From Porphyridium purpureum (lineage: Eukaryota), in contig VRMN01000001.1 of assembly GCA_008690995.1 (NCBI GenBank), forward strand, positions 186,001-250,000: a DNA stretch of 64,000 nt, in the 5' to 3' direction. The first letter of the stretch is position 1. Every line of letters starts with the position of its first letter. Both the position numbers and the translations under genes were made by a program. The notes beneath the pieces are model-generated. The model made no database searches, was not told the origin of the DNA, and saw nothing but the letters and a program-made list of their open reading frames with translations. Below are positions 3,435 to 50,592 of this stretch, piece after piece.

Positions 3435-3797
3435 TCATGAGAGGTAGAGGCAGCGCCGTGGTGCGGATTGTAGTAGAAGGCCATTCTCTTTTTACTACAC
3501 CGAAAGACCTTACCTCTAAGCCTATCTCCAAGTGGTGCCGAGTCGCCAGGCGAGAGGAGGCTGGCGCTTAAATAGAGCCGCTGCACTGCACTTCGCTTCT
3601 GCCGTGCGGGCACGGCCCTGCGGAGGGGTCGCCCGAGTGGAGGTGAGGGGTCGCGCCCCCTCCCGCGTCTTCGCCGTCGGGCGAACTAGCTGCCCCAACG
3701 GAGCGTCTCCATCCAGCCCGACCGGTTGCGGCGCCCTGGTGACAGGGACCGAACCGCTGCCGGTCTCGCCGTTGGGGCGTACAGCGATGTCATCACA
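3435..3797 (-). repeat. 3' LTR of the copia element
   Basis: Direct repeat of 7834-8196. On the minus strand it begins TGTGATGA and ends TCATGA. Confidence 0.95.
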
Positions 3798-6065
3798 CGC
3801 CCCCTCGCTGGACGCCGCAACACACAGGATTCGTCCTCGATGAAGACCAAATTTGTCTGCGCTCAGCGCCTTTGTCATCATATCCGCGGTATTTTGCTTG
3901 GTTCCTACTCTCATCAACAAGAGATTCTTGGCCTGCTCTGTGAGCTCATGAAGCCATGCGAGTTCGACGCCGTGCGTCTTTGCCATGTGCAGGAGCTTGT
4001 CGGACCATCCCTTCTTCACGCTCGCGACCGCAGCTTCGTTGTCGCATCGAACGATCGGGGTGAAAGGCTTTGCATGGCATGATTCTCTTGCTTGTTTTCG
4101 CATATGCTCTTGGAGAAGCAAAATCGGCATCACACCCAGTTTTACAGTGTGCGTCAATGCCGCGAGTTCGGATTCTTTGGTACTTGTGCTGCAAGCTCGC
4201 TGTCGGCTCGAATGCCAATCAATCAGATAATCCACTTCACCCACCCGCGCAAATACCAGGAACCCAGAGGTTGACTTCCGAGTTTTCAAGCAGCCCGCGT
4301 AATCTGCGTCGCTATAAGCATCCACTTGCGCCATCGCAAGGCCCTGCTTCGTCGTTACCTGTGGCCGCTTGAACGGGATTCCGAGATTCGTATGCCAGGC
4401 TAGGTAACGCACGGTACGGTCAAGAGCCATTGCAGCTGCATCGTTCCACGCGTCGACGTGTCTAGCAATCCATGCCGCGGCGTGCGCAACATCTGGGCGC
4501 CCTGCTCTGGCCAGCCACATCAGTTGCCCAATCAAACTCCGCACCCATGGCTCGCAGCATGTTGAGTCAGAAGCAGTCGCGAGTTCCACCACTTCATCAT
4601 GAAGTGGGGTATGCACCTTCCGAGCGATGCGATGTTTGCCTACTTCCTTGTATCCGAGCTTTTTCATGGCGTCCTTGACGAAAAGTGCGCAGTAGTCGGC
4701 ACTGTCCAGAACCCACTCGTTTTGATTTTCTGCGCGCACGCGCATTCCCAAAAAATCCACCCTGCCGTTCTCGGATATACGCTGTACCGGCTTTGAGATT
4801 TTAAAAAGCTCGAGCATTTCTTGTATGGCGAAGCCCAATGCCGAAATGTCACCTGCCAAGAGGCCGTCATCTACGTACAACGCGAGCAGGACGTCGGCGC
4901 TTTCGAAAGCCTTGTGGTAAAGGTTCATATCGCTCTGCGTTTGATGCCAACCGCGTTCGGTGAGTCGGCGTCTAGCCTCCGCGCCGAAGTCTGCGCCGGA
5001 ACGCGGCAGTCCGGGCAATGCTTTCTGCATTGGAACGACTGGCCGCTCAAATCCTGCCCAGGCATCCGGTCGCACGCTTTCAGGCAGCTCAAGATAAGTG
5101 CGAGGGCCGCGTGAGTCTGCCGAGAGATACGCAGAATCGACATCGAACTTAGCAAGATCTCCTGCCGCTCTGCCATGAGCGAGCACATACCGCGATGAGC
5201 GGAGTCCGATTGGTCGCTCGTACTGAAAATCGTCGTCTCGAACGAGGTGTCCACTGCCATTAAAAAGAACACACCCTTGTGCAACCAAACGAGCTTTAAG
5301 TAGCTGTTGCGATGTATCCTGTTCAACATTCTTGCGTGCGACCATCATCTTTCCGCGCACGAATTGAGCGCTCGGGTCGGTACTTGCTTCACGGAACGCT
5401 ACCACTTTCTTTGGATCAAAGACGTGCATGGACATCACAGCGTCTAGCTCACGTTTCACGGCCTGGCTTGCCGCCTTAGAGTTCAACGTGATCTTGTCCG
5501 TGATCAGTTCTGCTACTAATGCACTTTGCCCTGGGAACAGATCGTTGAGTATCTCAGCCGCGTTATCGTGCGTGATGCCGAGCACTTCGGCACGTCTTTC
5601 TGCATCGATAGCGCTGCGGCCCCTTAACTCATCGCGCGCCACAATCCTATTCCATTCTCCCCAGCCAAGCGCGTGCAGGCCGGACGCAAGTGATAGATCT
5701 TCCTCAAAGGTCCACTCGTTCGTTGCAGGCTCTACATCTTCTCTTTCAACCGTATGCAGTCCCTCCTCGATCTGCGACGTTTGATTGCCATTAGTCTCCT
5801 CGTGCAACGGCTCAGACTCATCGCTGAGTATATCAATGCCAGGAGGACCGACCATTGTTTCTGCGAAGCGCCCTTTCTCTTGGATGCGCACGTTGGTGAC
5901 CTCCCCCACGCTGCCATTCAAGAGAATGCGATACACTTTATGTCGCTTTCCGTACCCTACCAACACCCCTTTCTGGGCGCGGGCATCAAGTTTCTCTGGT
6001 CCTGGCTCAAAGACGTAGGCCGGTGATCCAAGCACGCGCAAATGCTCGGTGCTGCTGGATTCGCC
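3522..6065 (-). CDS. Copia pol, second segment: integrase C-terminus, Myb/SANT-like domain, reverse transcriptase, RNase H; reads on into the 3' LTR
   Basis: HLRVLGSPAYV..KLDARAQKGVLVGY (integrase C-terminus). KARLVAQG, FDVDSAYL and LYVDDGL (RT). YSDADYAG..RKSTSG, CDNEAA and ADMMTKAL (RNase H). Same frame as the upstream ORF, directly after the TAA at 6066-6068. Confidence 0.92.
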   Translation of the reverse strand, partial: GESSSTEHLRVLGSPAYVFEPGPEKLDARAQKGVLVGYGKRHKVYRILLNGSVGEVTNVRIQEKGRFAETMVGPPGIDILSDESEPLHEETNGNQTSQIEEGLHTVEREDVEPATNEWTFEEDLSLASGLHALGWGEWNRIVARDELRGRSAIDAERRAEVLGITHDNAAEILNDLFPGQSALVAELITDKITLNSKAASQAVKRELDAVMSMHVFDPKKVVAFREASTDPSAQFVRGKMMVARKNVEQDTSQQLLKARLVAQGCVLFNGSGHLVRDDDFQYERPIGLRSSRYVLAHGRAAGDLAKFDVDSAYLSADSRGPRTYLELPESVRPDAWAGFERPVVPMQKALPGLPRSGADFGAEARRRLTERGWHQTQSDMNLYHKAFESADVLLALYVDDGLLAGDISALGFAIQEMLELFKISKPVQRISENGRVDFLGMRVRAENQNEWVLDSADYCALFVKDAMKKLGYKEVGKHRIARKVHTPLHDEVVELATASDSTCCEPWVRSLIGQLMWLARAGRPDVAHAAAWIARHVDAWNDAAAMALDRTVRYLAWHTNLGIPFKRPQVTTKQGLAMAQVDAYSDADYAGCLKTRKSTSGFLVFARVGEVDYLIDWHSSRQRACSTSTKESELAALTHTVKLGVMPILLLQEHMRKQARESCHAKPFTPIVRCDNEAAVASVKKGWSDKLLHMAKTHGVELAWLHELTEQAKNLLLMRVGTKQNTADMMTKALSADKFGLHRGRILCVAASSEGACDDIAVRPNGETGSGSVPVTRAPQPVGLDGDAPLGQLVRPTAKTREGARPLTSTRATPPQGRARTAEAKCSAAALFKRQPPLAWRLGTTWR
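3798..3806 (-). promoter_or_regulatory. Polypurine tract of the copia element
   Basis: GAGGGGGCG lies immediately 5' of the 3' LTR on the minus strand. Confidence 0.8.
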
Positions 6066-7829
6066 TTAGGCAACCGCAATAGGAATCTGTCCTCGTGAGT
6101 TCATTGAACGGTTTAGCACGTAGCATACCGCCGGAGCTAACTCCGGCCAAAGGTCCTTACTGATGTTCTTGGCGAGAACAACCGCCCGTACCTTTTCGAG
6201 GAGGGTTCTGTTGAAACGTTCAGCACGTCCATTCATTTCTGGGACGTAAGCAGGGCTCGGTCTCAAGGATATGTCACGCGCCGCTGCCCACTCTCGCACC
6301 GCGGAGTTCATGTACTCCGTACCCCTGTCTGTGCGGAGAGTCTTCGTCTGTTGCTTGCAAGCTGTCTCCATCATTGACACCATAGCCATTAATACAGCAC
6401 CGGTCTGACTTTTCCGGTGAATGGGAGTGCAAGCTGACAATCCTGTGGCATCGTCCACCAGAGTTACCAAGTAACGTTCTCCTTTCGCGCCTCGTGGAGT
6501 CACTTCGAGAACATCAGAGTGTATGACTTCAAGAGGCACTGAAGCACGACTATCGTTTGGCGGAAATGAACGCCTTGTGCTCTTTGCCAGTATGCATATC
6601 TCACATGGCAGAGATCTATCGTACGGATGGCATAGCCTCTCATGCAGCAGCTGGCTGCTGATCCCGCCCGCTGACATCGGCGAGTGATCCTTGGCAGACA
6701 GTGCATATAACCCGTCACGTAGTGTGCTCACAGTCGTCTCGCCCTTGTCCTCGACCAGACACTTTCCTTCTTCGAACATTACCTTGGCACCTTCAGCCGC
6801 CAACTTCGGGATTGATATCAGATCCAGCGCTAGTCCTGGAACATAAAGGACATTGCGGAGATGTAGGCCTTCAACCTGCGCGCATCCGGCTGCTGTAGCC
6901 TCCATCTCGCCATTGTTCGCGGTCCTTATCTTATGATTGCATGGTCGAACGTTCGAGAGCAGTTGCACACACCCCGTCATGTGCGCAGAGGCACCGGAAT
7001 CAAGAATCCAAAGCCTCTTGCCCCCGCGTACAGCGTCAGCGTACGAACGCTTTACGGTGTTTAGCGCAAACATAGCAATCTCGTTCGACTTGGTGCCTCC
7101 CTCTTCCTCTGTGGCTGTCGCATTGCCGCGCGCTCGACGAGTGCAGTTCCGGCGCGTACGCCCGGATTTTCCACAGTCCCAGCAAGAGCCGTCGAACTTC
7201 GCCCGCCTTACATTCGAGCGCTGGGCATCCGTCTGCCCCGCGAAGAGCGACCGTTCGTGTGCGCCCCCGATCGCGGCACCCTTGCGCCTGCCTACCTGGC
7301 GCTCGATCGCGAGCAGCATCGACTGAATGCTCTCAATTCCAGCCACTCCACCACCAGCAATCCATGCTTGTTCAGCGGCTGCAAAATCGTCCGGAAGCGC
7401 CTCGAACAAGGCATGGACATATTCAGGCTCAGACAATTCGACTCCCAGAGCGCCGAGCTCCCGGCGGAGCATTGTCATCAGACCAAGCAGTTCCCCTACT
7501 GCTTTCCCAGCATGCTCACCAAAGTTTGCCAAGTTCCTGCGGAGCTCGCGCTCGTATGTTGGCGCTGCCGACTTGGACATACCTTCAAGCCGCTCCCATG
7601 CCTCTTTAGATGAGCCCGCGTCGGCAACCACGTGCATCAGCATCTCATCAACCAGGGCCCCGATGAGCCCTTTAGCTTTCTCATCCTTGATAGAAAACCC
7701 GTCCGACTCCACAGAAATCCCACCCCCGACGACTCCCCAAACCTCTTTCTGGCAAAGCATCAGTTTCATCCTGATACTCCACGTGGGGTAATTGGCGCAG
7801 TCTGCCCGCAGCACATAGGCTGGGCTCAT
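6066..7829 (-). CDS. Copia gag-protease-integrase segment ending at an in-frame TAA (alternative in-frame ATG at 7883 inside the LTR)
   Basis: Gag NYPTWSIRMKLML..VW, degenerate knuckle CWDCGKSGRTRRNC, protease WILDSGASAHMTG, integrase HHCC and HSDV/LVDD/LRTDRGTEY/NGRAERFNRTL. Confidence 0.92.
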   Translation of the reverse strand: MSPAYVLRADCANYPTWSIRMKLMLCQKEVWGVVGGGISVESDGFSIKDEKAKGLIGALVDEMLMHVVADAGSSKEAWERLEGMSKSAAPTYERELRRNLANFGEHAGKAVGELLGLMTMLRRELGALGVELSEPEYVHALFEALPDDFAAAEQAWIAGGGVAGIESIQSMLLAIERQVGRRKGAAIGGAHERSLFAGQTDAQRSNVRRAKFDGSCWDCGKSGRTRRNCTRRARGNATATEEEGGTKSNEIAMFALNTVKRSYADAVRGGKRLWILDSGASAHMTGCVQLLSNVRPCNHKIRTANNGEMEATAAGCAQVEGLHLRNVLYVPGLALDLISIPKLAAEGAKVMFEEGKCLVEDKGETTVSTLRDGLYALSAKDHSPMSAGGISSQLLHERLCHPYDRSLPCEICILAKSTRRSFPPNDSRASVPLEVIHSDVLEVTPRGAKGERYLVTLVDDATGLSACTPIHRKSQTGAVLMAMVSMMETACKQQTKTLRTDRGTEYMNSAVREWAAARDISLRPSPAYVPEMNGRAERFNRTLLEKVRAVVLAKNISKDLWPELAPAVCYVLNRSMNSRGQIPIAVA

Positions 7830-7833
7830 AACC
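7820..7833 (-). promoter_or_regulatory. Primer binding site of the half-tRNAiMet type
   Basis: GGTTATGAGCCCAG follows the 5' LTR directly. It is complementary to the initiator-tRNA anticodon arm, the primer type of Drosophila copia and Ty5. Confidence 0.88.
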
Positions 7834-8196
7834 TCATGAGAGGTAGAGGCAGCGCCGTGGTGCGGATTGTAGTAGAAGGCCATTCTCTTTTTACTACACC
7901 GAAAGACCTTACCTCTAAGCCTATCTCCAAGTGGTGCCGAGTCGCCAGGCGAGAGGAGGCTGGCGCTTAAATAGAGCCGCTGCACTGCACTTCGCTTCTG
8001 CCGTGCGGGCACGGCCCTGCGGAGGGGTCGCCCGAGTGGAGGTGAGGGGTCGCGCCCCCTCCCGCGTCTTCGCCGTCGGGCGAACTAGCTGCCCCAACGG
8101 AGCGTCTCCATCCAGCCCGACCGGTTGCGGCGCCCTGGTGACAGGGACCGAACCGCTGCCGGTCTCGCCGTTGGGGCGTACAGCGATGTCATCACA
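7834..8196 (-). repeat. 5' LTR of the copia element, TATA-like TATTTAA at 7967-7973
   Basis: Direct repeat of 3435-3797, followed by the PBS. Confidence 0.95.
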
Positions 8197-25568: not shown

Positions 25569-27362
25569 TTACAGGGACCCTGAAGCAAAGCAGAGCTGGC
25601 CTCCCTGCACATACGTATCTGCCGGGAACCGAATGCCATGCGCTTGTATGTCAAACACAAGCAGTACCTCACCTGGTGCCGTGGCAAAAAGGCTTGTCAC
25701 GTCCAAGATACCGCTGCTCTCCCAGTTGGCGCAGTCGTCAGGGGCCGAGTCAACCTGGCCTGCCGGGACATTGCGGTTGATCTGCATGACTCGCTGAGTC
25801 GCCCCGCTGACCGGGTTGAAACGCCACACAGACGCCTCCTCACCGCTAATAGTGCAAAACTCGTTCACGGAACGGTCTTCCTGAACAAAGACCATACCTG
25901 TCGTTGGCGACCAATCAAGGTTGTCAGGCGAACGAATGCCAAAGTCTCGGTTCGCCGGCTCATCGCCGTCGTATACAATGGTCGCGCTGCACACAATCTC
26001 AGAAATGCTCTGCACATTGCCTGCCAAAGCCGCCTGCAAGGAAGCGTCATCGATATCGAACGTGTACAGAGTTCCCCAAGAATCCTCCGGGAAAAGTGAC
26101 GGGCGTCCCGTCGACGCCATAATGAAGCGGGTGCCATCTGCCGGATCCTGCGATACATCCTCTGGACGCGAAAAGCGAAAGGCGCCGACATTATCAGCTT
26201 CCGCGTCGAGCTCGGCCATAGTCAAGAAAGAACCCGTGGCAGTGTTATAGTTAGGAACCACCACAAACTTGCCCTGCTTGGTGGTCTCGCCAGTCGCCAG
26301 CCACTCCCCTGGCGTGCGAACGCCGTCGTCCGCCACCCACATAAGCAACACACCATATCCGAATCCATTCCTCACCAGGAATGGCGGAGCATTATACGGA
26401 CCTGGCGCCTGTTGTCCCTTTTGGCCAACGAACAAACGCATAGCCACACCCTCACGGTCGTCACCAACCGCGTAGACAATCTTGTCTGTGCCGAACTGTT
26501 CCAGCGAGACCAGGTTTTCGTACCCGGCACGCCCAATCATGGGAGCGACATAGATTGAGTCTGTGCTTACTTCGATAATGGCAGCCAGTCCATCACTCGT
26601 TTCCTCACCTGTGATGTACATATCGTCCAAGGCGCCGTTTTGGCCAGCCATCACAACTGCGCCCGAGCAGAAGCGGTTGAACTCAAATTCAGATCCAGGA
26701 ACCATCACGGAGCCATCCTCAAGGTACACTGTACGGTACGCTAGCTCGACGTCCAGGACTTTACGAGTCACACGATCCATCACAAACTTGTGCACACGCG
26801 AACCGCGTACGGACGCGCCGCTGTCCATGGTCATGAGGAAGCCCAGCCCAGCCCCGATCTCGCTGTTCACATAAAGGAGCACATTATCTCCCTGCGGCAC
26901 TGCACCAATGCCGTCCAGAATTCCTGTCACAGCGTATCCAAATGCGTTCAGCGATTCTTGCGTCCCCACGGTGAACACACACTCCACGTTCCAACCTGCC
27001 AAACCAGTCATCATGGCGGCATCCGAAGGCGCGAATTGAAGCGCTGAAACTTGCGAAGTCAATGGCGGGCACGCAGCGACGGTGCGCGCTGCCTGCTCAC
27101 ACAAAGGCGACGACGTGAAGAAGTATACAAAAATATCGAGAGTGTCGCACAGCAAGTCACCCTCTGTGTCATCACAAATGCATACCGCTTGCTCTGGACT
27201 GCGCAACTCACAGGCCTCCAGCTCGGGGGCCACTGGAGAAATGATTTCCAGTTCAGGCGCACGGCGGCATCGACACTGCTGCGCTGCAACCATTGGAGCA
27301 CAAGCGACGGTCACCACCAGCAGCAGCACTGCTGCGACTGCAAATCGTCGAGAAGGAAACAT
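25569..27362 (-). CDS. phoX: Secreted PhoX-like (DUF839) alkaline phosphatase with an N-terminal Cys-rich module
   Basis: Signal peptide, then RFCSG, GEE, GRAGYEN, RPED, SPDNL, QED, WESSG and DIQAH in the order typical of PhoX beta-propellers. Confidence 0.85.
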   Translation of the reverse strand: MFPSRRFAVAAVLLLVVTVACAPMVAAQQCRCRRAPELEIISPVAPELEACELRSPEQAVCICDDTEGDLLCDTLDIFVYFFTSSPLCEQAARTVAACPPLTSQVSALQFAPSDAAMMTGLAGWNVECVFTVGTQESLNAFGYAVTGILDGIGAVPQGDNVLLYVNSEIGAGLGFLMTMDSGASVRGSRVHKFVMDRVTRKVLDVELAYRTVYLEDGSVMVPGSEFEFNRFCSGAVVMAGQNGALDDMYITGEETSDGLAAIIEVSTDSIYVAPMIGRAGYENLVSLEQFGTDKIVYAVGDDREGVAMRLFVGQKGQQAPGPYNAPPFLVRNGFGYGVLLMWVADDGVRTPGEWLATGETTKQGKFVVVPNYNTATGSFLTMAELDAEADNVGAFRFSRPEDVSQDPADGTRFIMASTGRPSLFPEDSWGTLYTFDIDDASLQAALAGNVQSISEIVCSATIVYDGDEPANRDFGIRSPDNLDWSPTTGMVFVQEDRSVNEFCTISGEEASVWRFNPVSGATQRVMQINRNVPAGQVDSAPDDCANWESSGILDVTSLFATAPGEVLLVFDIQAHGIRFPADTYVQGGQLCFASGSL

Positions 27363-31292: not shown

Positions 31293-32244
31293 TGTTCGGC
31301 ACGCGGCTTGGGTATGCAGGTGCCTCGCAGCCTGTTTTGCAGTTTTGTCGCGTTCGTGAATAAATTATTGACTTGTAATCGTGGAAGCGTCACACAACGG
31401 CTTCAGCATCCGACCTCAAACTCGTCACCAGTGCGAGAAATTGGCGTTGCTGAAAGTCAGGCAGCGCATCGCGTGCGCCGCGGCCGGCGTCGGTATCATC
31501 GAGCTCACGGCAACCGCCCCTTTGCTCGGCGAGCAACTGGCTCCAGTCATTCGAGTGCGCCGCCAAACCGAGCACGAGTAGGTACCGAATCCGTCTCGTT
31601 GCCAGATCCAGAACGACAATTATCGTTGCAGCACAGAGTCGACTGACGCGTGTATGTGATTCTACACTGTGCGCACATCTGAAGGTGCCACGAAATGAGC
31701 GACCGCAGCCGCCGACCACCCTGCTCAGCCAGGTAGTTGCGCACTGCGCGCCAGCTTCAAGTTGGAGCTCACGGACACACAGGCACCGAGCATGCTTCGG
31801 TTCTGCCTCGTTGGGCACTCAGCACTGCTGGAATACGCGGTCTCTGACACGTCGTCGCGCAGTACAAACTAGAGACCGTGATGAATGAGAAAGATTGCGC
31901 CTTGAGCCCTCTGTTCGCCGCGGTGCCCGTCACCTGCTCCCATATGTCACGGACCGGAACCGTGTTGGGTCGACTGTCACACACCAGCGGCTAGCGGGCT
32001 TTCCAACTGGCCGTCGGTGCCCATGCATGCTCGCGCGCTGCAATAAAGGAGCATGTGGGGCTTGCAGTAGCGCGGTGTCGCCCTCGCCATCCGAACTAGT
32101 GCAATCTATGCGGGCATGTCCAGTCTTCATGTTTCAGATGGCCTAGAAAGACTCCTTCAAAAGCCTAAACGTTCAATCTGCAAGATCTCAGAGGCTTTGA
32201 GGTGCGAAAGGGCGAAGGGTGGAGAGAGTTTTCTTTGGGAAGCC

Positions 32245-34554
32245 ATGGGCGTCCACGCGCTAGCGGTTGTGGAGACTTCGCACGCAGAACACTTGGTTCT
32301 TGCCGCGGCGCCGCACGTGCAGGTCGCCGGGCACGCGGGATGGATGTCCACCAGTGCGGTGGGTATGGACTCGGCGCTGCAGACGCTGCGCCGCCTGCAT
32401 GTGCACGTTGAAGAGCAGCGAGCCAAGCAGGTGGACAGCATAGAGACGGTATGCGCGCAGTTCCATGGTCCGCCCTTTGTCGAGTATCAGATGGTGCGTG
32501 GCGGACCCGGATCCGGGCCCGGCGATCGTGGCGCTGCCGCTAAAACCGCTCCTCGACTCGACTTGTTTGGATCGAAAGCCGCGCAGAACGAGGCAATCTC
32601 CGTGCCGTTGAGAGTAGTCGCGATCTGGGACAATGAGCCCCATGAGTGGCACGCCCAAGTTCTCGCGCGGGAGTACCTGTCGCGCGCGTGTGCCGCTGTT
32701 GCAAAGGTGTACGCACAATTGCTCGCAAAAGAACCAGACGCAGTGGCCTTTGTCTACTCGGTGTTGTCCAGCACGCTTCGGGGAGAATTTAACGAAACCA
32801 TTCCCGACTCTGTGACCGTCTCGGCAAGGCCTGTACAAAAGCTACGCTCTTTGTTCAAACGGGGCAAGGCAAACAAGGCCTCCACACCTGGGCCCGCCAA
32901 GGAGAGCGTCCAAAAGAAGCAGAGCGTCAGGGTTTTGGCCACCGGGCTGACTGCGCAAGTGGTCACCGAGGAACGAGCCGACGATGTGCCCGACTCGTTG
33001 GCAAAGCGCAAGACCTCAACCGGACTGTTCAAGAAAAAGGCCTCAACAGTCGGGAAGGACGAATCAAGCGCCCCTGACGACCCGCCCCGTACGAGTCTTC
33101 AAAAACTGGCCTCAAAACTTAGCGGCAAAGCGCCCGCAAAAGATTTGGGCACGAGCGCCGCACGCAGCTCATCTGAGACGATGACTGCGCTCGCCCATGT
33201 GGCGGACCAAGTGGTAGAGGAAGAAAGCGTGCTCAAGCTTCCAGAAAAATGCTTTGACATGGCCAGAGTCGGCAAGCCCTTGGATGTGGCGATGGGGGAT
33301 CTCAAGTGGTTTGTACTGCTTCTGCAGAATGAATGGATTTCAGAGGAGCAAGAGGGCGTGCGCAACATTGAGCGGCGCACGGGAAACCTACTGCGCGGCA
33401 GTACGCTGCAGCGAAACGCTTCGATTGACGCTGAGCACGCAAACGCCGGCGTAAATCGGAATGCGCAGTATTTTGCGGCATTCGGGAACCAATTTCTGGG
33501 CCCGAAGCGATCCACCTACATGGGTGGAATGTTCCCCGCTGCGCAGTCAACTAATTTTGCGGGAGTGATGCAGCAGCAACGGCAGCAAGAGCAACAGCAA
33601 GCCGCACTTTTGCAAAGGAAAATGTCCTCCGGGGGGATGGCGCCCGTCCGTGCCACACCTGGTAACCACGTTCAGCAGCAGCAACAAATGATGAACGCTC
33701 AGCAACAGCAGGCTTTGCTACAAAAGCGGGCGTCAATGGGGGCATCGACCGGCCTTGGGCAGCCACGCGTACCAGCACCAGTGCAGCAACAGCAAGTAGC
33801 TGTGATTGCTGCGCAGCCGCCACAGGCAGTGAGGAAAATGGACCCTGCTCAAGCCAAGCAGCAAGAACAGCTCAAGCTGCGCGATGCCATGGCAGGGTGT
33901 CCTCCAAATACAGATCCAGTGCGCTTCAAAATGAACCAGTTTGCCGAGACGCTGCAGCAGGGCAAGCTTGAGCTCGCGCTGAAACAAGTTCAAGAGTCGC
34001 TCGTGGTGATCCGCAATGCGGGCGGCGGCGTCATCGAGCGGGAGAAGGAGACGCAGATGTGCGTGCGATACGTCTTGGGCGTCAAGCTCGCACTGCGCAT
34101 CCGCGCGCTCGACGCGGAGATGCGTGCGCATGTGGAATCAAGTCCAGAATTCCGCAAGCGCTTGCTTGAAGCCGCCGCGCTGGCCGCTTTGCTCGGAAGC
34201 CTGCCCCTCGTCAAGGTGCACCGCGGGCTGATGCTGCGTGTTGCGATTGAGAAGAACATGGCGGCAGGAAACTACGGGGTCGCGGCCAAGTTTATCCGTG
34301 AAATGATGGATATCATGCCAGCCGCGCAACAAGGCGACTTGATTCAGCAGCTTCAGCACTGCCAGCAAAATGGAGAGCGGGACACGCGTGTTGCACCAAC
34401 GCAGCGGATTTGCTACAAATCATTGACGCTCGTGGGATCGCCTGTGCTCAAGTGCAATTTTTGTCCCGCCCTGTTTTCGCCCCAGAAGGGCGCGGTCAGT
34501 GCGCAGCAGACATGCCCATTTTGCCTGCATGGTCTCATTCTACCGATGCAGTAA
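32245..34554 (+). CDS. TSET/TPLATE-related protein: TCUP/TML-like longin domain, low-complexity linker, TTRAY/alpha-COP-type Cys-rich C-terminal domain (769 aa)
   Basis: C-terminal LGSLPLVKVHR..LRVAIEKNM..NY, IC..S, CNFC and CPFC resemble the TWD40-1 and alpha-COP C-termini. N-terminal ALAV..VEYQMV..RVVAI..VYSVLSSTLRG resembles the TML longin. No WD40 repeats. Confidence 0.7.
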   Translation: MGVHALAVVETSHAEHLVLAAAPHVQVAGHAGWMSTSAVGMDSALQTLRRLHVHVEEQRAKQVDSIETVCAQFHGPPFVEYQMVRGGPGSGPGDRGAAAKTAPRLDLFGSKAAQNEAISVPLRVVAIWDNEPHEWHAQVLAREYLSRACAAVAKVYAQLLAKEPDAVAFVYSVLSSTLRGEFNETIPDSVTVSARPVQKLRSLFKRGKANKASTPGPAKESVQKKQSVRVLATGLTAQVVTEERADDVPDSLAKRKTSTGLFKKKASTVGKDESSAPDDPPRTSLQKLASKLSGKAPAKDLGTSAARSSSETMTALAHVADQVVEEESVLKLPEKCFDMARVGKPLDVAMGDLKWFVLLLQNEWISEEQEGVRNIERRTGNLLRGSTLQRNASIDAEHANAGVNRNAQYFAAFGNQFLGPKRSTYMGGMFPAAQSTNFAGVMQQQRQQEQQQAALLQRKMSSGGMAPVRATPGNHVQQQQQMMNAQQQQALLQKRASMGASTGLGQPRVPAPVQQQQVAVIAAQPPQAVRKMDPAQAKQQEQLKLRDAMAGCPPNTDPVRFKMNQFAETLQQGKLELALKQVQESLVVIRNAGGGVIEREKETQMCVRYVLGVKLALRIRALDAEMRAHVESSPEFRKRLLEAAALAALLGSLPLVKVHRGLMLRVAIEKNMAAGNYGVAAKFIREMMDIMPAAQQGDLIQQLQHCQQNGERDTRVAPTQRICYKSLTLVGSPVLKCNFCPALFSPQKGAVSAQQTCPFCLHGLILPMQ

Positions 34555-34611: not shown

Positions 34612-35823
34612 TCAGGTCTGCTGCATCACCGAACGAACACTTTCTTGCACGGCTTTCGTGACAAATTCGATTTCTGCATCCGTCATATGAGAGCCAATCG
34701 GGATCGAAAAGACTGTGTGCGTGGCGCTTACCGTGTTGGGAAAGTCTTCAGCATTCAGTGTGAGTTGCTGAAACACAGGCTGGTCAAAAAAGCCGATAGG
34801 ATAGTAAACCGCTGTCCCAACACCACGTGCCTTGAGCGCCGCAACAATGTGGTCACGGAGTTGCGGCTCCGGAGATCCATCCGAGAAGTCAGCTAATCTT
34901 AGTGTGTAGACTCCGTACACATGCTCTGTAGTTCCCAATGCCGGTGGATGGGCTGCGCTGGTTATCAGTGGCTCCAGCTCTGGCACGACCAGCCGCTCGT
35001 TTAATTTGAACTCGGCGTTGTACTTTGCCGCGACATGCATACGAGCGGCTCGGTCATCTGGAAACTTTCGAAGTACTTCGCGAAGCACCGCAGCTTGCAA
35101 AGCGTCTAACCTCGAATTTGTGCCAACGATTAGGTGCGCTCCTGTCGCGGCGTCCTTGCCGTGTTGTCGCAGCATTCTCAGACGATCGTAAATCAACTTG
35201 TCGTCCGTAAAAACCGCGCCACCATCCCCGAGACATCCCAGCGGCTTGGTAGGGAAGAAGCTCGTGCATCCGATGGAACCCGGCCAGCCGCAGCTCATGT
35301 GCCCTTCGCGACTGGCGCCAAAGCTCTGAGCGCCATCCTCAATCAGAGCAATCTTTGCGCGACCTGCGCACTGGGCCGCATCCAACACACTTGCGAGCCG
35401 CGCAAGGTCTGGCATCTGTCCAAACAGACTAACAGCAATGACGGCCCTTGTGCGTGCGCTGATTTTACGACTCACAGCGTCAACATCGAGCAGGAACGTG
35501 CGCCTGTCAATGTCCACAAACACGGGCGTTGCGCCGACGAGGCAGATCGCTTCGGCTGAGCTGATCCACGAAAAGGGCGTCGTGATCACTTCGTCGCCTG
35601 GCCCGATCTCCAGTGCGCGCAGGGCAAGCTGAAGCGCGTCTGTGCCATTCGCGACCGCCACGCAGAACGGTACCCGCACGTATGCGGCCAGTTCTGCTTC
35701 CAGCTGCTCTACCTCTGGGCCGAGAATAAAGTGCGCCGAGTCGAGCACGCGGGCGAGTGCCGCGTCGATCGCTGCGCGATTCGCCGAAACGTGCCGGTCC
35801 ACTTGGAAAATTGGGAGATTCAT
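34612..35823 (-). CDS. DegT/DnrJ/EryC1/StrS PLP-dependent sugar-nucleotide aminotransferase (WbpE/WlbC-like)
   Basis: FILGPEV..LE, ANGTDAL, GPGDEVITTPFSW, IEDGAQSFGA, SFFPTKPLGCLGDGG (PLP Lys) and NSRLDALQAA. Confidence 0.95.
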   Translation of the reverse strand: MNLPIFQVDRHVSANRAAIDAALARVLDSAHFILGPEVEQLEAELAAYVRVPFCVAVANGTDALQLALRALEIGPGDEVITTPFSWISSAEAICLVGATPVFVDIDRRTFLLDVDAVSRKISARTRAVIAVSLFGQMPDLARLASVLDAAQCAGRAKIALIEDGAQSFGASREGHMSCGWPGSIGCTSFFPTKPLGCLGDGGAVFTDDKLIYDRLRMLRQHGKDAATGAHLIVGTNSRLDALQAAVLREVLRKFPDDRAARMHVAAKYNAEFKLNERLVVPELEPLITSAAHPPALGTTEHVYGVYTLRLADFSDGSPEPQLRDHIVAALKARGVGTAVYYPIGFFDQPVFQQLTLNAEDFPNTVSATHTVFSIPIGSHMTDAEIEFVTKAVQESVRSVMQQT

Positions 35824-40775: not shown

Positions 40776-42155
40776 ATGGGAGAAAGAGGTGCGCTCCTGG
40801 GCGGAGCGCCGGGCGAGCGCTCGGCAAAGCACGGCGTCTCGTTTGGCGCGCGTCTGGGTGATATTGTGCGATACATCACCCCGCTGGGCGTGTCGGCGTT
40901 CGGCGGCCCGCAAGCGCACGTGGCGATCGCACACCGCAAGCTGGTGGATGAGGAGGATTGGATCGATGAGGATGTCTTTGTGGGTCTCTTTGCGCTCAGC
41001 AGCGCCCTGCCCGGTCCGTCCTCAACGCAACTGATCACGTCCATAGGCGCTTACAAGGCCGGCATGCTGGGCGGGTTCCTGTCCTTCTTCTTGTTCCAGG
41101 TCCCTGGGTTTTTGGCCATGCTTTTCCTCGGCCTTCTTGTCGCGCCCGCGGTTGAGCGTGGAGATACGTCTGTTTCGGGAGGACTCGCGCAGGCCGTTTT
41201 GCAGCTCTTTGATGCGATTGCCCCTGGGCTTGTCGCAGCCGCGTTCGCGCAAGTCGCGCTGGCCTCGTACATGATCTCGCAAAAGACGTGCGGGAAGATC
41301 AAGCTGCACTGGGCGCTCAACCTGGTCTCGACAACCATTGCTGTGCTGATTTCGCCGGAAGCCTCCGCGTGGGTGTATCCGCTCATGATGGCCCTTGGCG
41401 GCCTTGTCACCCTATGGGCCGTCATGTCTGCGAGAGCCCCCGCTGCGTCGTCCACGTCTCCTGCGAGGGATACGACGCAGAACGCCGAGTCACACGACAG
41501 CCTCGAGCAGCACCAAGAGCAGATGACCCGTGTCGGCGGAGCGTTTCTGTTGATGATCTTTATAGCGATCTCGCTCGCTTTGCTCTTTGTTCGAAGCTCG
41601 TCAATGGCGCTTCGACACACGAGGGCGTTTCAGCTAACGGAGGCGTTCTGGCGCATGGGTGGCACCGTATTCGGCGGCGGCCAGGTCGTGCTTCCCATGA
41701 TCTACAATGAAGTCGTGGCTCGCGGCTGGCTCGCGGAGAACATCTTCCTGTACGGCTTTGCACTTGTTCAGTGCATGCCCGGCCCGCTGTTCAACTTGTC
41801 TGTGTTCATCGGGGCGGCGTGCGCGGGCGTCCCGGGCGCGCTGCTATGTGCATTCGGGCTGTTTGCACCAGGAGTGCTACTCATCATGGGCTGTCTGCCG
41901 TTCTGGACGCGCTTCCGCAACTCGCCGCGCTTCCGCGCTCTCATGCTTGGCGTGAATGCGACCGCCGCAGGACTCATCAACGCCGCGCTTTTTGTCTTTC
42001 TTCAAAAGTCGCTCCCGAACGCGGGCACGTATGCCGTGGCTGTGATCGCAGGCGTCCTCAGCGTCGTGTTTGGTGTCTCTGCCCCACTCACGATCGTGCT
42101 GGGCGGTGTGCTTGGTTACTTAATGACTCTTCTGGGCCTCGGACGAGCGATGTGA
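40776..42155 (+). CDS. chrA: Long-chain chromate ion transporter (CHR family)
   Basis: Two homologous halves with FGGPQAHVA..LPGPSSTQL and FGGGQVVLP..MPGPLFN, and multiple TM helices. Confidence 0.95.
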   Translation: MGERGALLGGAPGERSAKHGVSFGARLGDIVRYITPLGVSAFGGPQAHVAIAHRKLVDEEDWIDEDVFVGLFALSSALPGPSSTQLITSIGAYKAGMLGGFLSFFLFQVPGFLAMLFLGLLVAPAVERGDTSVSGGLAQAVLQLFDAIAPGLVAAAFAQVALASYMISQKTCGKIKLHWALNLVSTTIAVLISPEASAWVYPLMMALGGLVTLWAVMSARAPAASSTSPARDTTQNAESHDSLEQHQEQMTRVGGAFLLMIFIAISLALLFVRSSSMALRHTRAFQLTEAFWRMGGTVFGGGQVVLPMIYNEVVARGWLAENIFLYGFALVQCMPGPLFNLSVFIGAACAGVPGALLCAFGLFAPGVLLIMGCLPFWTRFRNSPRFRALMLGVNATAAGLINAALFVFLQKSLPNAGTYAVAVIAGVLSVVFGVSAPLTIVLGGVLGYLMTLLGLGRAM

Positions 42156-42328: not shown

Positions 42329-43195
42329 TTACTCCTGGACCGCCAGCCCAGCTGCCTGTACGAGTCTGGGTACTGTGTTATATGGCAATTCCGGCGTGTT
42401 CGCGCCCATGGGGCGCTTGTACGGCACCTCCTTGGGCGCCTTGGGCTTCCAGAACGCGCCCACCTTGGCAGCGACCACGTCGCCGCCCTCCACACCGTCC
42501 ATGTAGTCCATGGCGCCGATGGACTTGACAAACGGCTTGCCCGGGATCTCTGTCTGCGGCTGTCCGTCCCACGTGTAGCCCGAGATGGTGGCGATCTTTT
42601 CCTGGCCGGCCACGTTGGCCAGGCGCTGTCCCGATGCCGTCAGCAGCTGCGCCTCGCCCGAGTACAGACCATCGCGCAGGCTCGTGATGACACTGGCGGT
42701 AGCCGACTCGGCCTTGGTGATCATTGCGCCGCGCTCGGCCAGGACGGAACCTCGAAACTTGGCAAACGCCTCGTCCGCGACGGCCTCATCCGAAATGTCG
42801 GCGCAGGACGCGAGCGTCATGCTCTCATCGACGAACCCAGCGTCCCATCTCCACACCGCGCCGTCTGCCTCTGCGATCCGCGGGTCCACCATGGAGTCTG
42901 GCCCAAAGCCCAGCACCGGATCGTCGAGCTGCGGGATGCCAAACTCGGGCACGGCGACGGCGCCCTTTGCGGTCCTCCCCAGCACGGCGTCTCCTTCGGA
43001 CGCCGGCAGGACATTCCTGTTACCCCAGTCGGACCGCGAGCGCGCCTTGTCCACATAATACTGGTTCACGTGCCCCTTGGTCCTATCGGTCGAGTAGGAG
43101 TAGTCGCCGTACCCGCTCATTCGCAGCGCGCACAGCGGCGCCGACGCCTTTGCGCCCGCTGGCACTGCCACTCCCGCCCCGCTCACAAACGCCAT
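42329..43195 (-). CDS. LRC5: Nucleus-encoded phycobilisome rod-core linker, LRC5-like (288 aa)
   Basis: Red-algal transit peptide MAFVSG..LRM and strong codon bias. Sequence and length match my recollection of red-algal LRC5; not verified by search. Confidence 0.75.
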   Translation of the reverse strand: MAFVSGAGVAVPAGAKASAPLCALRMSGYGDYSYSTDRTKGHVNQYYVDKARSRSDWGNRNVLPASEGDAVLGRTAKGAVAVPEFGIPQLDDPVLGFGPDSMVDPRIAEADGAVWRWDAGFVDESMTLASCADISDEAVADEAFAKFRGSVLAERGAMITKAESATASVITSLRDGLYSGEAQLLTASGQRLANVAGQEKIATISGYTWDGQPQTEIPGKPFVKSIGAMDYMDGVEGGDVVAAKVGAFWKPKAPKEVPYKRPMGANTPELPYNTVPRLVQAAGLAVQE

Positions 43196-46698: not shown

Positions 46699-49600
46699 AT
46701 GGAAGGTTTGAAGGTGCAAGACAGCGACGTGCTGAACTTGACGGTGGTCGGTGACGGGCGCGGGAAGCAGGACGCTGCCGCCACTGCGAATGGAAAGGAG
46801 GAGGAATGGGAGGCGCTCGTCCGCGCGCCCGAACGCGATCTCCGCTCGATTGACACGCCCTTCCGACTGGATCAATCCGGCCTGCGGATGTACTATGGCG
46901 GAGCGCCGTTTGTTGGGGCGACATGGTTTGGGCCAAACGCCTTCTTGGTCGAAACGCTGAGCCGTAAGAAGCGAGGTTTCCAGATGAATGACCAGCGCGC
47001 GCGCGCGGGCGGGTTTCCGCAGGATCCAGCCGAGTTGGTTTTTGAGCTGCAAAGATTGATGCATCAAGATGACCAGAAACAGCTGCCATTGCGCAAAATC
47101 TTGCGCGTGCTGCGCTCGTTGACATATTACACGCCGCACTCCTACGTGCCACTCATGCCCGAGTTTCGCGTGCTGCTCGCAGTGGACCATCCGCACGTGG
47201 CGCGGCTCGCGCACTACTTTGTGCGCTGCTGTGCTCCGATTGAAGATGACGACGAGTATCGCGATATATATGAGGCACTCGAGGCCGAGGCGGCGTCGCC
47301 GTCCCCTGCGCGACGCGCCGCTGCGACAAAGTCGCTGGCGCGCATCACCAAGGCACGGGAGATGCGGCGCGCACAGGACTACATCACAGATGTGCTGCGA
47401 AGCGTCGGCGCCGCACTAACGGAAGAGGACAAGAAGAAGAAAAAGAAGAAGGAGAAAAGGCGAAAGAAAAAAGGGGGTGAGGATGCGGAGCAAGAAGCCG
47501 CGACCAAAGCAGCAAACGACACGGACGGTCAGGATGCCGCCTACGAAGGGGCGCGTATGATAGATGATGGCGCTGGAGGAGTGATCTACTCGAGCCGAAT
47601 GGAGGAAGCGCAAAAGGTCAAGTCCAAGCTTGGCAAAATGCTGGTGGGTCACGCAGTGCTGGGTGGGATGCGCAGGCTGCAGCGCGTCAACGTAGAGAAT
47701 ATTCGTGTGGAGGTATACTTCTTTGATCTGGGGCTCGCTTCAGTGTGCACCTCGACAGTTCGCCATGCCATGGCCATGCTCGAGGCTCGCACGTACGGCA
47801 GCGCCACTCCCGTCGCGCAGTACTTATTGCCGCGCCTCCCCCACAAGAACCCGCCAAAGAACTTGCGTCTCAAGCTTGAAGATTTGGGCGCCAAAGTGTA
47901 CTATGCGCGCATTCTCGGTATCCTGGCTCAGGATCCAGACTTCGCGCAGTATGTACCCGAAAAGAATGCGCTTCAGTGGCGGAAGGAGCAGCAGAGCTCG
48001 ATGATAGAGAAGGCTGCGCCGAGCAGCGCCATGGATGCAGCCGGCAGCAGTAACGCCGGTGACGGTACCGATACAGGCCCGGCGGCCAAACCAGAGAAGC
48101 GTGGCTTTTTCCGCTTCATCTTTAATGGTGGCAAGAAGCTTTTTGGGGGCATTCGCCGGAAACTGGGCCTGGAAAAGCGAATGCGCCCAAACGACCCGCT
48201 TGGAGTGGAGTTTGTGGAAGCATTGCTGCGATTGATTCAGAACCCGAGCAATCGTGTGCTTCTCGAGGTGGTACGCGGAGTCTCCCGGCGGCGATGGATT
48301 ACGTGGGCGAACGTGCCCGTACCACAGGCCGCTCTATTTGGATCGGCCGAACTTGAAGAGCCTCGGCAGCTTGACCTGAGTGAGTGGGCAAAGGAGGACG
48401 AGAACGAGAATGAAGTGAGCAGCAACGACGACGAGGACGGCATGGCAGCAGACAACATGGACGACGCCGACTTTTTTGATTGGGATCCCGACGCTGCCGC
48501 CGCAGAGGGTGGTAACCAGACGCAGCTGCTGGAGGATGAGGACGTCGTCGAGCAGGTCGAAATTCAGGTTGACGAACAGGTTGTCCGCGAAAACACGAAG
48601 AAGACGACATTTATTCAGCGCATGAAGGAGAAGCGCGCCACGAACCGTCAGAAGAAGTTTGACCTCAACACGCCGTTCTACCTGCGCCGCGTGGGCGAAG
48701 GTTCCGTCACTGCGCTCGAGGCGATCATGCGCCGCGTTTACGCAGCGATGAATAGTGACGAGACTACGCGCCGTCTCGCTGCGGCTGAGTCGGCAGTGCA
48801 CCTTGGGCGCGCTAAGCTCTACTCGGATACCGAAGAGGAGCGCGAGCTGTACAAACTCGCGAAAGAGAAAATCTTCAGTCAGGAGTCGAAAAAGACCGGG
48901 AATCGCCACGTTTTGGATGGGTCAGGCAACGCGTCAGCACAGCAGCAGCAGCAGCAGCAATCGACGCGTGCAGGTTTATTTGGACGCAGAAAAAGCGGCG
49001 CGCCGGCGTCCAGCATGGTGGCCGCGGCGGCTCAGAATATGATGGTACAGCAGCAAGAACAGGCTAAATTGGCGAACGGCGGCAAAGCGCAGCCAAAGGC
49101 TATCACGTCTGGCGCGCGCTTTGCTGGCCAGCAAGCGCTGGTCCCGGTGACTGTTCCGGACGGCGGTTCGGATCCGAATGGCGGGCTAGCTCTCGCAATT
49201 GCGAGCGTCGGAGTGGGTGGCACGGGTGCAGGAAACCTAAAGCCAGCGAGCGAGCTTGAGGATAGCCCTCTGGAGCCGCTGGTGATGCCGCTCAAAGATC
49301 TAATGGATGAGGACGTGAGCTTGGCTGTGCGCTCCGAGGCAGGCACTGCGCTCATGTTCTTTCTGGCGTCCGGTGCAGGCATCAAGGCCTTTGCCGCCCT
49401 GGCAGCTGCCGAGCGCGAGCGACGCTGGAACGATCCGGATGCGTTCGGCAAGGAAACGCTTGATGACTTTTACTCACCACCCGGCGAGCGCGTTGACTCG
49501 TGCATGCTGGTTCGCTACTTTGGTGCCTACCTGAGAGACCCCGCGCACGGTGCCGGCATTGGGTTTGAGAGCGCTGAGCGTGTGATGGACACATTGCTCT

Positions 49601-50592
49601 ACGAGATTCTGGAAGAGTCACCGTGGTTGGGCGTGGACGCTGTTGAGCTCGCTGAGTACTGGGCCATGAAGCATCCAAATGCCGGGCCTGTGGGCAAGCT
49701 TGGCCTGTTTTGGGAGGCACTTCTTTCTGTGGGCTCACAGGAGGCGGGCATCGCCGTGGGCGCATCAGTAACACGATGCTTACTTGTCGACCCTTCGCGC
49801 GAGCGCGTCGCGTGCGCGGCCGCGGTGTTTCTGCGCCGGCGCATCCTTGACATTGCCGTCTTGTCCGCGGGCTACGTGGACCGGCTGGGCTCTGGCATTC
49901 CCGAACCACTTCCGGAAGAAATCGGGGAGGAGATTGAGCGTTATTTTAGCGCGCTGTGGCACGGCGTCGTGCTCGGACCGTCGGCCGAGGCGCGCGCTTT
50001 ATGCGTTCAAGCGCTGGGTGGGGGCGCCGTTCTTGCTGGTGATCCTTTCCGCATTGCTACGTATGAGCGACTGACCGAGCTCGTGCGTGCGCGTGGATAC
50101 GGGTTGCGTCTCAGCGCAGAGACAGTCTTGGACAGCCTCGACACCATGTACTACACGCGCGAGCGTCTTGCCGAGGCGCGCGTCAAAATGATGCAGATGG
50201 GCCACGCTAGCAACTATTCCAAGTGGCTGAAAGGAGTTTGGAAGCTCGCCGCAGAGTCTGCATGCGCGGCGCAAGTCATCCTGGGGTGCCCGCCGCCGCC
50301 AGGCTGGGAGCCGCTAGGCCCTGAGGGCAGCCAGGTGGTTGCCGAGTCCGAAGCCAAGCATGGCAACTACCGGCTGCGCGAAGTGCGCGTTGCGAACGAG
50401 AACATAGACGAAATCTATGACGGTCCTAGTGGAGGTATGAACGGCGCAGATGGCTGGGCCAATCGCCTTGCAGCAGGCGCTGCTCCGCCGCCGCCAATGC
50501 TGCGTCTGCGCGACGGACCTCACGGCTATGCCGCAGAGCAGCAACCACAACAACAATCCATCCAAGGGCTCCAACTGAACCTCCCGCACTGA
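46699..50592 (+). CDS. TSET/TPLATE complex large subunit, TSAUCER/TASH3-like helical solenoid without SH3 (1297 aa)
   Basis: Collinear similarity to remembered plant TASH3 blocks: NPSNRVLLE (DPSDRVCFE), IMRR, AAAVFL, R..CVQAL....GDPFRIATYERL (GEPFRLQIYEFL), GL....VLDSLDTMY and WEPLGP. Confidence 0.75.
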   Translation: MEGLKVQDSDVLNLTVVGDGRGKQDAAATANGKEEEWEALVRAPERDLRSIDTPFRLDQSGLRMYYGGAPFVGATWFGPNAFLVETLSRKKRGFQMNDQRARAGGFPQDPAELVFELQRLMHQDDQKQLPLRKILRVLRSLTYYTPHSYVPLMPEFRVLLAVDHPHVARLAHYFVRCCAPIEDDDEYRDIYEALEAEAASPSPARRAAATKSLARITKAREMRRAQDYITDVLRSVGAALTEEDKKKKKKKEKRRKKKGGEDAEQEAATKAANDTDGQDAAYEGARMIDDGAGGVIYSSRMEEAQKVKSKLGKMLVGHAVLGGMRRLQRVNVENIRVEVYFFDLGLASVCTSTVRHAMAMLEARTYGSATPVAQYLLPRLPHKNPPKNLRLKLEDLGAKVYYARILGILAQDPDFAQYVPEKNALQWRKEQQSSMIEKAAPSSAMDAAGSSNAGDGTDTGPAAKPEKRGFFRFIFNGGKKLFGGIRRKLGLEKRMRPNDPLGVEFVEALLRLIQNPSNRVLLEVVRGVSRRRWITWANVPVPQAALFGSAELEEPRQLDLSEWAKEDENENEVSSNDDEDGMAADNMDDADFFDWDPDAAAAEGGNQTQLLEDEDVVEQVEIQVDEQVVRENTKKTTFIQRMKEKRATNRQKKFDLNTPFYLRRVGEGSVTALEAIMRRVYAAMNSDETTRRLAAAESAVHLGRAKLYSDTEEERELYKLAKEKIFSQESKKTGNRHVLDGSGNASAQQQQQQQSTRAGLFGRRKSGAPASSMVAAAAQNMMVQQQEQAKLANGGKAQPKAITSGARFAGQQALVPVTVPDGGSDPNGGLALAIASVGVGGTGAGNLKPASELEDSPLEPLVMPLKDLMDEDVSLAVRSEAGTALMFFLASGAGIKAFAALAAAERERRWNDPDAFGKETLDDFYSPPGERVDSCMLVRYFGAYLRDPAHGAGIGFESAERVMDTLLYEILEESPWLGVDAVELAEYWAMKHPNAGPVGKLGLFWEALLSVGSQEAGIAVGASVTRCLLVDPSRERVACAAAVFLRRRILDIAVLSAGYVDRLGSGIPEPLPEEIGEEIERYFSALWHGVVLGPSAEARALCVQALGGGAVLAGDPFRIATYERLTELVRARGYGLRLSAETVLDSLDTMYYTRERLAEARVKMMQMGHASNYSKWLKGVWKLAAESACAAQVILGCPPPPGWEPLGPEGSQVVAESEAKHGNYRLREVRVANENIDEIYDGPSGGMNGADGWANRLAAGAAPPPPMLRLRDGPHGYAAEQQPQQQSIQGLQLNLPH

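What the first reader, a model, noticed from the sequence alone, without database searches (positions are those of the whole stretch)
32245..34554. Apparent fusion of a TSET medium-subunit longin domain to a TTRAY/alpha-COP-type C-terminal domain
Seen: the N-terminal 180 aa or so (32245-32790) parallel plant TML as I recall it (ALAV/LALAL; VEYQMV..RVVAI/VVYRLV..YILGV; VYSVLSSTLRG/VYMALDIVLRG). The C-terminal 210 aa or so (33920-34551) parallel the TWD40-1 tail (LGSLPL..HR..R.AI..NM..NY, two CxxC). A Lys/Gln-rich linker joins them. There is no mu-homology domain and no WD40 propeller. Known: in TSET/TPLATE these domains sit on separate subunits. Inference: a rewired endocytic coat in which the outer-coat tail replaces the mu-homology domain.
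Basis: partly seen in the sequence, partly recalled or inferred. Interest (0 to 1): 0.85.

Follow-up and report, generated by a model that had tools for sequence, protein, structure and literature searches.

The report
Red-algal coat adaptor with borrowed tail
This gene, shared by several red algae, joins a vesicle-coat adaptor domain to a copy of a tail normally found on the coat's outer scaffold, and is likely the endocytic TSET coat subunit reported missing in red algae, rebuilt with a different end.

Summary
The fusion is real. One 769-aa reading frame (32245-34554) is covered end to end by sense RNA reads with no splice joints. Relatives in Chondrus, Pyropia and Bangiopsis have the same layout. 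The N-terminus has a longin fold (best Z 11.2, probably delta-COP; all top rows are longins). The C-terminus is an alpha-COP-CTD-type domain (Pfam E 1e-8, Foldseek E 8e-9) whose nearest relatives are tails of full-length TTRAY-type proteins, which keep them: the tail was copied, not moved. No mu-homology domain or propeller is present. The linker holds a conserved acidic tryptophan motif (26 of 28). A TSAUCER orthologue lies 12 kb away and is expressed, and a survey of 42 red-algal libraries found no TCUP. Which longin it is stays open: the match to plant TML is colinear but weak (P 0.01-0.04), and TSPOON looks similar by eye. Best reading (0.5): a TCUP-derived subunit whose mu-homology ear was replaced by a TTRAY tail that likely binds tryptophan motifs. 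Rivals: TSPOON fusion (0.25), another adaptin longin (0.15). New variant of a known complex; not found in my literature searches.

The parts
32245..34554 (+). Whole gene, 769 aa (P0001), no intron seen
   Evidence: Open frame; sense reads in every bin and no joints in 3 raw-read runs
32245..32799 (+). Longin domain (aa 1-185) with two insertions absent from relatives
   Evidence: Model; VIA-align Z 11.2/11.0/10.2; alignment
32800..33234 (+). Basic, predicted-disordered linker, first half
   Evidence: pLDDT under 50 at aa 193-331; 12% Lys
33235..33354 (+). Conserved acidic tryptophan motif in the linker (aa 331-370)
   Evidence: Motif in 26 of 28 family proteins examined; aligned; pLDDT 54-65
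33355..33909 (+). Gln-rich, predicted-disordered linker, second half
   Evidence: 18% Gln; low pLDDT
33910..34551 (+). TTRAY/alpha-COP-CTD-type helical tail (aa 556-769)
   Evidence: Pfam COPI_C, Foldseek, tree
34453..34524 (+). Two CxxC pairs, predicted zinc ribbon ending the tail
   Evidence: Present in 26 of 28 family proteins; metal binding inferred
46699..50592 (+). TSAUCER (TASH3) orthologue, 1297 aa (P0123), likely partner complex subunit
   Evidence: Long near-identical stretches, by eye, to the Rhodella TSAUCER in PMC12167817 supplement file 3; sense reads in every bin

Best explanation
The gene encodes one protein with a longin domain, a long linker and a copy of the TTRAY/alpha-COP-type tail, and it is likely the red-algal medium subunit of the TSET coat, in which that tail has likely replaced the mu-homology domain. 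Shown: the fusion, both folds (as predicted models and sequence matches), the conserved linker motif, and an expressed TSAUCER in the genome. Inferred: the longin docks on the TPLATE trunk as TML does; the linker holds the tail out as a flexible ear; the ear binds acidic tryptophan motifs as the alpha-COP CTD does, possibly the motif in a neighbouring copy's own linker, which would link coats or recruit accessory proteins. The tail arose by duplication of the TTRAY 3' end early in red algae.
For: Fold: solved medium-type longins tend to score above small ones. A COPI chain of 201 aa that I take to be delta-COP gives Z 11.2 and delta-COP 10.2, against zeta-COP 8.3; most mu1-mu4 chains give 8.5-9.1, solved sigma chains 7.4-8.3. 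Profile match to six land-plant TMLs is colinear over 122-124 columns, P 0.038 and 0.011, reached by 3 of 100 column shuffles. By eye against query sequences in the supplement: same start pattern as four TCUPs and the same VY-6-LRG end of the longin. Layout (longin, long linker, terminal ear) is that of TML (10.1101/2024.10.07.616965). No TCUP was found in 42 red-algal libraries (PMC12167817). TCUP has lost or donated its muHD before (PMC4031984). Tail: fused tails form one clade (98/93) sister to 12 TTRAY-type rows (joint 98/96). Best structural hits are alpha-COP CTDs bound to tryptophan-motif peptides (binding site described in PMC10866661); the delta-COP muHD also binds Trp motifs (PMC7145657).
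Against: The TML match is marginal (hhalign probability 1-4%), no TSPOON, mu or delta profile was available as a control, and the red profile gives no significant single-sequence hit to TML (best 2.6 bits). The linker motif does not align to TML (E 0.63). The second-best fold row is an AP-3 sigma homology model (Z 11.0), some mu2 chains score only 7.6-8.1, and most gaps are about 1 Z. TSPOON shares motifs by eye. No TPLATE was verified in this genome; the Chondrus row I saw in the survey's raw TPLATE file reads like beta-COP (my recognition). The Bangiopsis member lacks the Trp motif. Pocket residues for Trp binding were not checked.
Confidence: 0.5

Rival explanations
1. The longin is the small subunit TSPOON (LOLITA), extended by a linker and the TTRAY-type tail, and it pairs with TSAUCER.
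For: By eye, Arabidopsis TSPOON in the supplement shares NLKGV with the family's LRGV and YIVY with YITY at similar spacing, and has short loops like the family. TSAUCER, TSPOON's partner, is present 12 kb away. The seven readable red-algal rows I saw in the survey's raw TSPOON file look like ordinary AP sigma subunits (my recognition), so a separate TSPOON is not assured. AP-3 sigma model Z 11.0.
Against: Known TSPOONs are mostly longin-only (PMC4031984). The start pattern and the end of the longin fit TCUP better by eye. Solved sigma and zeta chains score below delta and most mu chains. 0 of 14 family longins hit Pfam Clat_adaptor_s, though TML does not either.
Confidence: 0.25
2. The longin comes from another adaptin-family subunit (a diverged delta-COP or mu duplicate) and the protein is an accessory factor or works outside TSET.
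For: delta-COP-type chains are the best solved-structure matches (Z 11.2, 10.2). The tail is a mobile module, also fused to EF-hand/UBA, RhoGEF/C1 and EH-domain proteins, so carrying it does not prove TSET membership.
Against: Only 12-13% identity to those chains, and the longin profile finds no delta-COP or mu chain in the PDB at E up to 10, unlike what a recent duplicate of these conserved proteins would give. The tail groups with TTRAY-type proteins.
Confidence: 0.15
3. The fusion is an artefact of assembly or gene calling.
For: No long read or single cDNA from this organism was seen; assembled RNA contigs run on into the convergent neighbour.
Against: Single open frame; continuous sense reads without joints; 11 of 11 proteins found with the longin profile alone carry the tail; the Bangiopsis member is a complete transcript-derived ORF.
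Confidence: 0.01

Closest known systems
TCUP / plant TML (TSET medium subunit)
   Same: N-terminal longin, long disordered linker, terminal appended domain; weak colinear profile match
   Different: No mu-homology domain; ends in a TTRAY-type tail; longer linker (about 370 aa against 210); sequence match not significant on its own
TSPOON / LOLITA (TSET small subunit)
   Same: Longin fold; a few shared short motifs by eye
   Different: TSPOON is normally longin-only; here about 580 further residues follow
TTRAY / TWD40-1 C-terminal all-alpha domain
   Same: Tail is homologous and groups with tails of propeller-solenoid proteins
   Different: No propellers or solenoid; the tail sits on a longin subunit while the TTRAY-type proteins keep their own
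alpha-COP C-terminal domain (PF06957)
   Same: Same helical fold (Foldseek E 8e-9, about 20% identity)
   Different: Only profile positions 201-379 of 405 match; two CxxC pairs are kept; more distant than TTRAY tails
Muniscins (FCHo/Syp1) and Dictyostelium TCUP
   Same: Precedents for domain shuffling at the TCUP gene (muHD moved to an F-BAR protein, or lost)
   Different: There the muHD moves or vanishes; here a scaffold-subunit tail appears in its place

Membership tests
TCUP/TML | N-terminal longin fold | tested here: met
   Chondrus orthologue TM 0.58-0.63 to Clat_adaptor_s and Longin clusters
TCUP/TML | Sequence orthology to TCUP longins | tested here: inconclusive
   P 0.038 and 0.011 against six land-plant TMLs, no rival profiles as controls
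TCUP/TML | C-terminal mu-homology domain (also lacking in Dictyostelium TCUP) | tested here: not met
   No muHD hit where TML scores E 1e-12; no beta-sandwich in the model. Hence called TCUP-derived, not canonical TCUP
TCUP/TML | Long disordered linker after the longin | tested here: met
   pLDDT under 50 over most of aa 193-532
TCUP/TML | Binds the TPLATE trunk | not testable with these tools
   No red-algal TPLATE sequence was obtained
TSPOON/LOLITA | Longin-only protein of about 150 aa | tested here: not met
   769 aa
TSPOON/LOLITA | Sequence orthology to TSPOON | tested here: inconclusive
   By eye only; two scans for a TSPOON locus found none
TSPOON/LOLITA | Binds the TSAUCER trunk | not tested
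TTRAY/TWD40 | Two beta-propellers and an alpha-solenoid | tested here: not met
   No WD40 or solenoid
TTRAY/TWD40 | C-terminal all-alpha tail | tested here: met
   Tree and profile matches
alpha-COP | Full COPI_C domain with high score, propellers | tested here: not met
   34.5 bits, second half of the profile only; best COPI_C E among 109 of 109 non-self hits was 2.8e-13
TSET complex in this genome | Other subunits present | tested here: inconclusive
   TSAUCER found; TPLATE, TSPOON and TTRAY could not be sought, as no genome is held

The most novel reading that the evidence does not exclude
Red algae run an overlooked TSET coat in which the medium subunit swapped its mu-homology ear for a duplicated outer-coat tail that reads tryptophan motifs in neighbouring copies' linkers, giving a self-linking lattice with two such ears per coat (one on TTRAY, one on the medium subunit).
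Probability: 0.25. Interest if true: 0.8.

Novelty: new variant of a known kind. Interest (0 to 1): 0.64.

Why it matters
A recent survey concluded that red algae have a much reduced TSET, with no TCUP and one TSAUCER in 42 libraries. This family offers a candidate for the missing subunit, hidden because its longin is divergent and its usual ear is gone, and the same window adds a second red-algal TSAUCER. An inner adaptor subunit carrying an outer-scaffold domain is a layout I did not find described for AP, COPI or TSET coats. The tail's repeated reuse on other proteins, and its separation here from propellers, gives a direct way to test what the poorly understood TWD40-1 tail does.

Tried and rejected
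Word-indexed search with the whole protein found only itself; a second search fell on the wrong length window, 1491-4255 aa, and found nothing. The longin-profile search covered 327-2000 aa only, so a standalone short longin of this family could not appear. The Atlas search with the window's own N-terminus gave nothing usable. Foldseek on the longin gave no hit at E up to 0.001, though most top rows were longins. Pfam and PDB sequence searches with the longin gave no longin family. The linker motif did not align to TML. Scans for a TSPOON locus were empty. Co-folding the longin with TSAUCER aa 100-560 was not available, so binding is untested. A wide fold search of the full model was not run. 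P0123 gave no useful Pfam or PDB sequence hit. Earlier scan notes held nothing. Five family and TSAUCER motifs were not found as contiguous red-algal strings in the held part of the survey's supplement (gapped alignments can hide them, and the file is cut). P0063 (311 aa) is treated as a shortened gene model of P0128, with which it shares both ends. Rejected: alpha-COP fragment, split gene, and the idea that TTRAY lost its tail.

Full report
Observation. The window holds one open frame at 32245-34554, 769 aa. No whole genome is held. In three raw-read RNA runs every bin over the frame has sense-strand depth (about 4-22 over the body of the gene) and no joints; strand direction is checked by the neighbours on either strand. 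Assembled RNA contigs begin at 32214-32228 and two span the whole frame, but run into the convergent neighbour, so they do not alone prove one transcript. The upstream ATG at 32116 lies in a bin without sense reads.

Family. A search of 1.84 billion representatives gave 110 hits at E up to 0.001 including self. The top full-length ones share the N-terminal domain, a mid-linker motif and the tail. Named members are from Chondrus crispus, Pyropia yezoensis and Bangiopsis (a complete transcript-derived ORF) and Pyropia vietnamensis; most are unnamed. These genera belong to three red-algal classes (my knowledge), and the window's protein branches deep among them, so the source is inferred to be a red alga. 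Of 129 proteins held, 35 scored above 15 bits with the N-terminal profile and 35 of 35 also match the tail (this includes near-duplicates and is partly circular, as most were found by the tail). Independently, 11 of 11 proteins found by the longin profile alone carry the tail, in a search limited to 327-2000 aa.

N-terminal domain. The model (pLDDT 76.5) matches longins: Z 11.2 (rmsd 3.8, 132 aligned) to a 201-aa COPI chain I take to be delta-COP, 11.0 (3.0, 140) to an AP-3 sigma homology model, 10.2 (3.9, 130) to delta-COP, 8.5-9.1 to most mu chains (three mu2 chains 7.6-8.1), 7.4-8.3 to solved sigma and zeta chains, 9.2 to the VAMP7 longin. The Chondrus orthologue's Atlas model agrees. To test the TML idea I fetched 13 loci by a TML motif, aligned 6 distinct land-plant TMLs and compared profiles: colinear, but only P 0.038 and 0.011, with 3 of 100 column shuffles as high. 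By eye against the survey's query sequences, the start pattern and the end of the domain favour TCUP, while two motifs in the first half and the short loops favour TSPOON. No TSPOON profile could be built. The fold is settled, the subunit identity is not.

Tail. Pfam COPI_C E 1.2e-8 over the second half of the profile, PDB alpha-COP E 0.0003, Foldseek E 7.6e-9 to alpha-COP CTD bound to a tryptophan-motif peptide. None of the 109 non-self hits scores like a true alpha-COP (best COPI_C E 2.8e-13; the expectation of far higher scores is my knowledge). A tree of 57 tails chosen from the 129 proteins (most fragments and near-duplicates left out, no alpha-COP outgroup, bootstrap not fully settled) puts the 20 fused tails plus one fragment in one clade (98/93), sister to 12 rows of TTRAY type (99/95; joint 98/96). 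Dropping the three compositionally odd Bangiales rows and six others keeps this at SH-aLRT 89. Ten of the 12 are long proteins whose profile best matches alpha-COP propeller and CTD at only E 1e-15, and all keep their tails. They are unnamed; that they are red-algal is inferred from their position and a branching pattern like the fused family's. The tail thus looks copied from TTRAY. It is also mobile elsewhere: on EF-hand/UBA proteins of dictyostelids, a RhoGEF/C1 protein and an EH-domain protein.

Linker. Mostly predicted disordered. An acidic motif ending in D-L-x-W occurs in 26 of 28 family proteins, a basic amphipathic-looking motif in 20 of 28 (not matched in the window's own protein), and the two CxxC pairs in 26 of 28.

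Context. ORF 46699-50592 shares long near-identical stretches, by eye, with the only red-algal TSAUCER in the survey's supplement and is expressed at similar depth. The survey found no TCUP in 42 red-algal libraries. The seven readable rows I saw in its raw red 'TSPOON' file look like AP sigma subunits and one Chondrus 'TPLATE' row like beta-COP (my recognition, raw files, a small part of them), so neither TSPOON nor TPLATE is assured for red algae. That weakens the use of 'missing TCUP' as a discriminator.

Mechanism. Most likely the longin sits in the TSET core as the medium subunit and the tail acts as a tethered ear in place of the muHD. The alpha-COP CTD binds single-tryptophan motifs and supports self-association (PMC10866661), and the delta-COP muHD binds acidic tryptophan motifs (PMC7145657), so the swap would exchange one motif-binding ear for another; the conserved linker tryptophan is a candidate ligand. 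In plants the TML muHD contacts membrane and AtEH proteins, functions that would be lost or rerouted. All binding steps are inferred; none was tested.

Literature. Searches returned no description of this fusion; the library lacks most subscription papers. Seen: PMC12167817 (passages, section 8 whole, rows of supplement files 1-2, searches and parts 187, 350, 352, 367 of file 3, which is cut before the red TTRAY alignments; mmc1.pdf unreadable, and these unseen parts may bear on the TTRAY and TSPOON statements); passages of 10.1101/2024.10.07.616965, PMC4031984, PMC10866661, PMC7145657 and PMC9915479; Travis 2019 only as a reference-list title; the others as search listings.

Verdict. A real, conserved, apparently undescribed red-algal fusion of an adaptin-type longin to a duplicated TTRAY tail. 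TCUP-derived 0.5, TSPOON-derived 0.25, other longin 0.15. New variant of a known complex; interest 0.64.

Noticed in passing
window 46699-50592 (+): TSAUCER orthologue with no Pfam hit, 12 kb from the fused gene; only one red-algal TSAUCER had been reported. Whether the closeness is conserved is unknown.
   Followed up: partly
P0086, P0101, P0054, P0066, P0102: The same TTRAY-type tail ends unrelated proteins: EF-hand plus UBA (dictyostelids), RhoGEF plus C1, EH domain, and a coiled-coil protein. The tail is a reusable trafficking module.
   Followed up: partly
PMC12167817 supplement file 3, parts 350-367 and near 162: Raw red-algal 'TSPOON' and 'TPLATE' rows seen look like AP sigma subunits and beta-COP, so the red-algal counts may include other adaptins.
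   Followed up: partly
window 34612-35823 (-): DegT/DnrJ/EryC1/StrS aminotransferase, a mostly bacterial family, convergent with the fused gene; their transcripts overlap at the 3' ends.
   Followed up: no
window 3522-7883 (-): Copia-type LTR retrotransposon frames (gag, integrase, reverse transcriptase).
   Followed up: no
window 40776-42155 (+) and 25569-27362 (-): Chromate transporter and a weak PhoX-like phosphatase match.
   Followed up: no
window 42329-43195 (-): Very highly expressed gene (about 750-fold depth against 5-30 for most neighbours), not identified.
   Followed up: no
window 31300-32150: Low-level reads of the opposite strand upstream of the fused gene, with no long frame listed; possibly a divergent or antisense transcript.
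   Followed up: no
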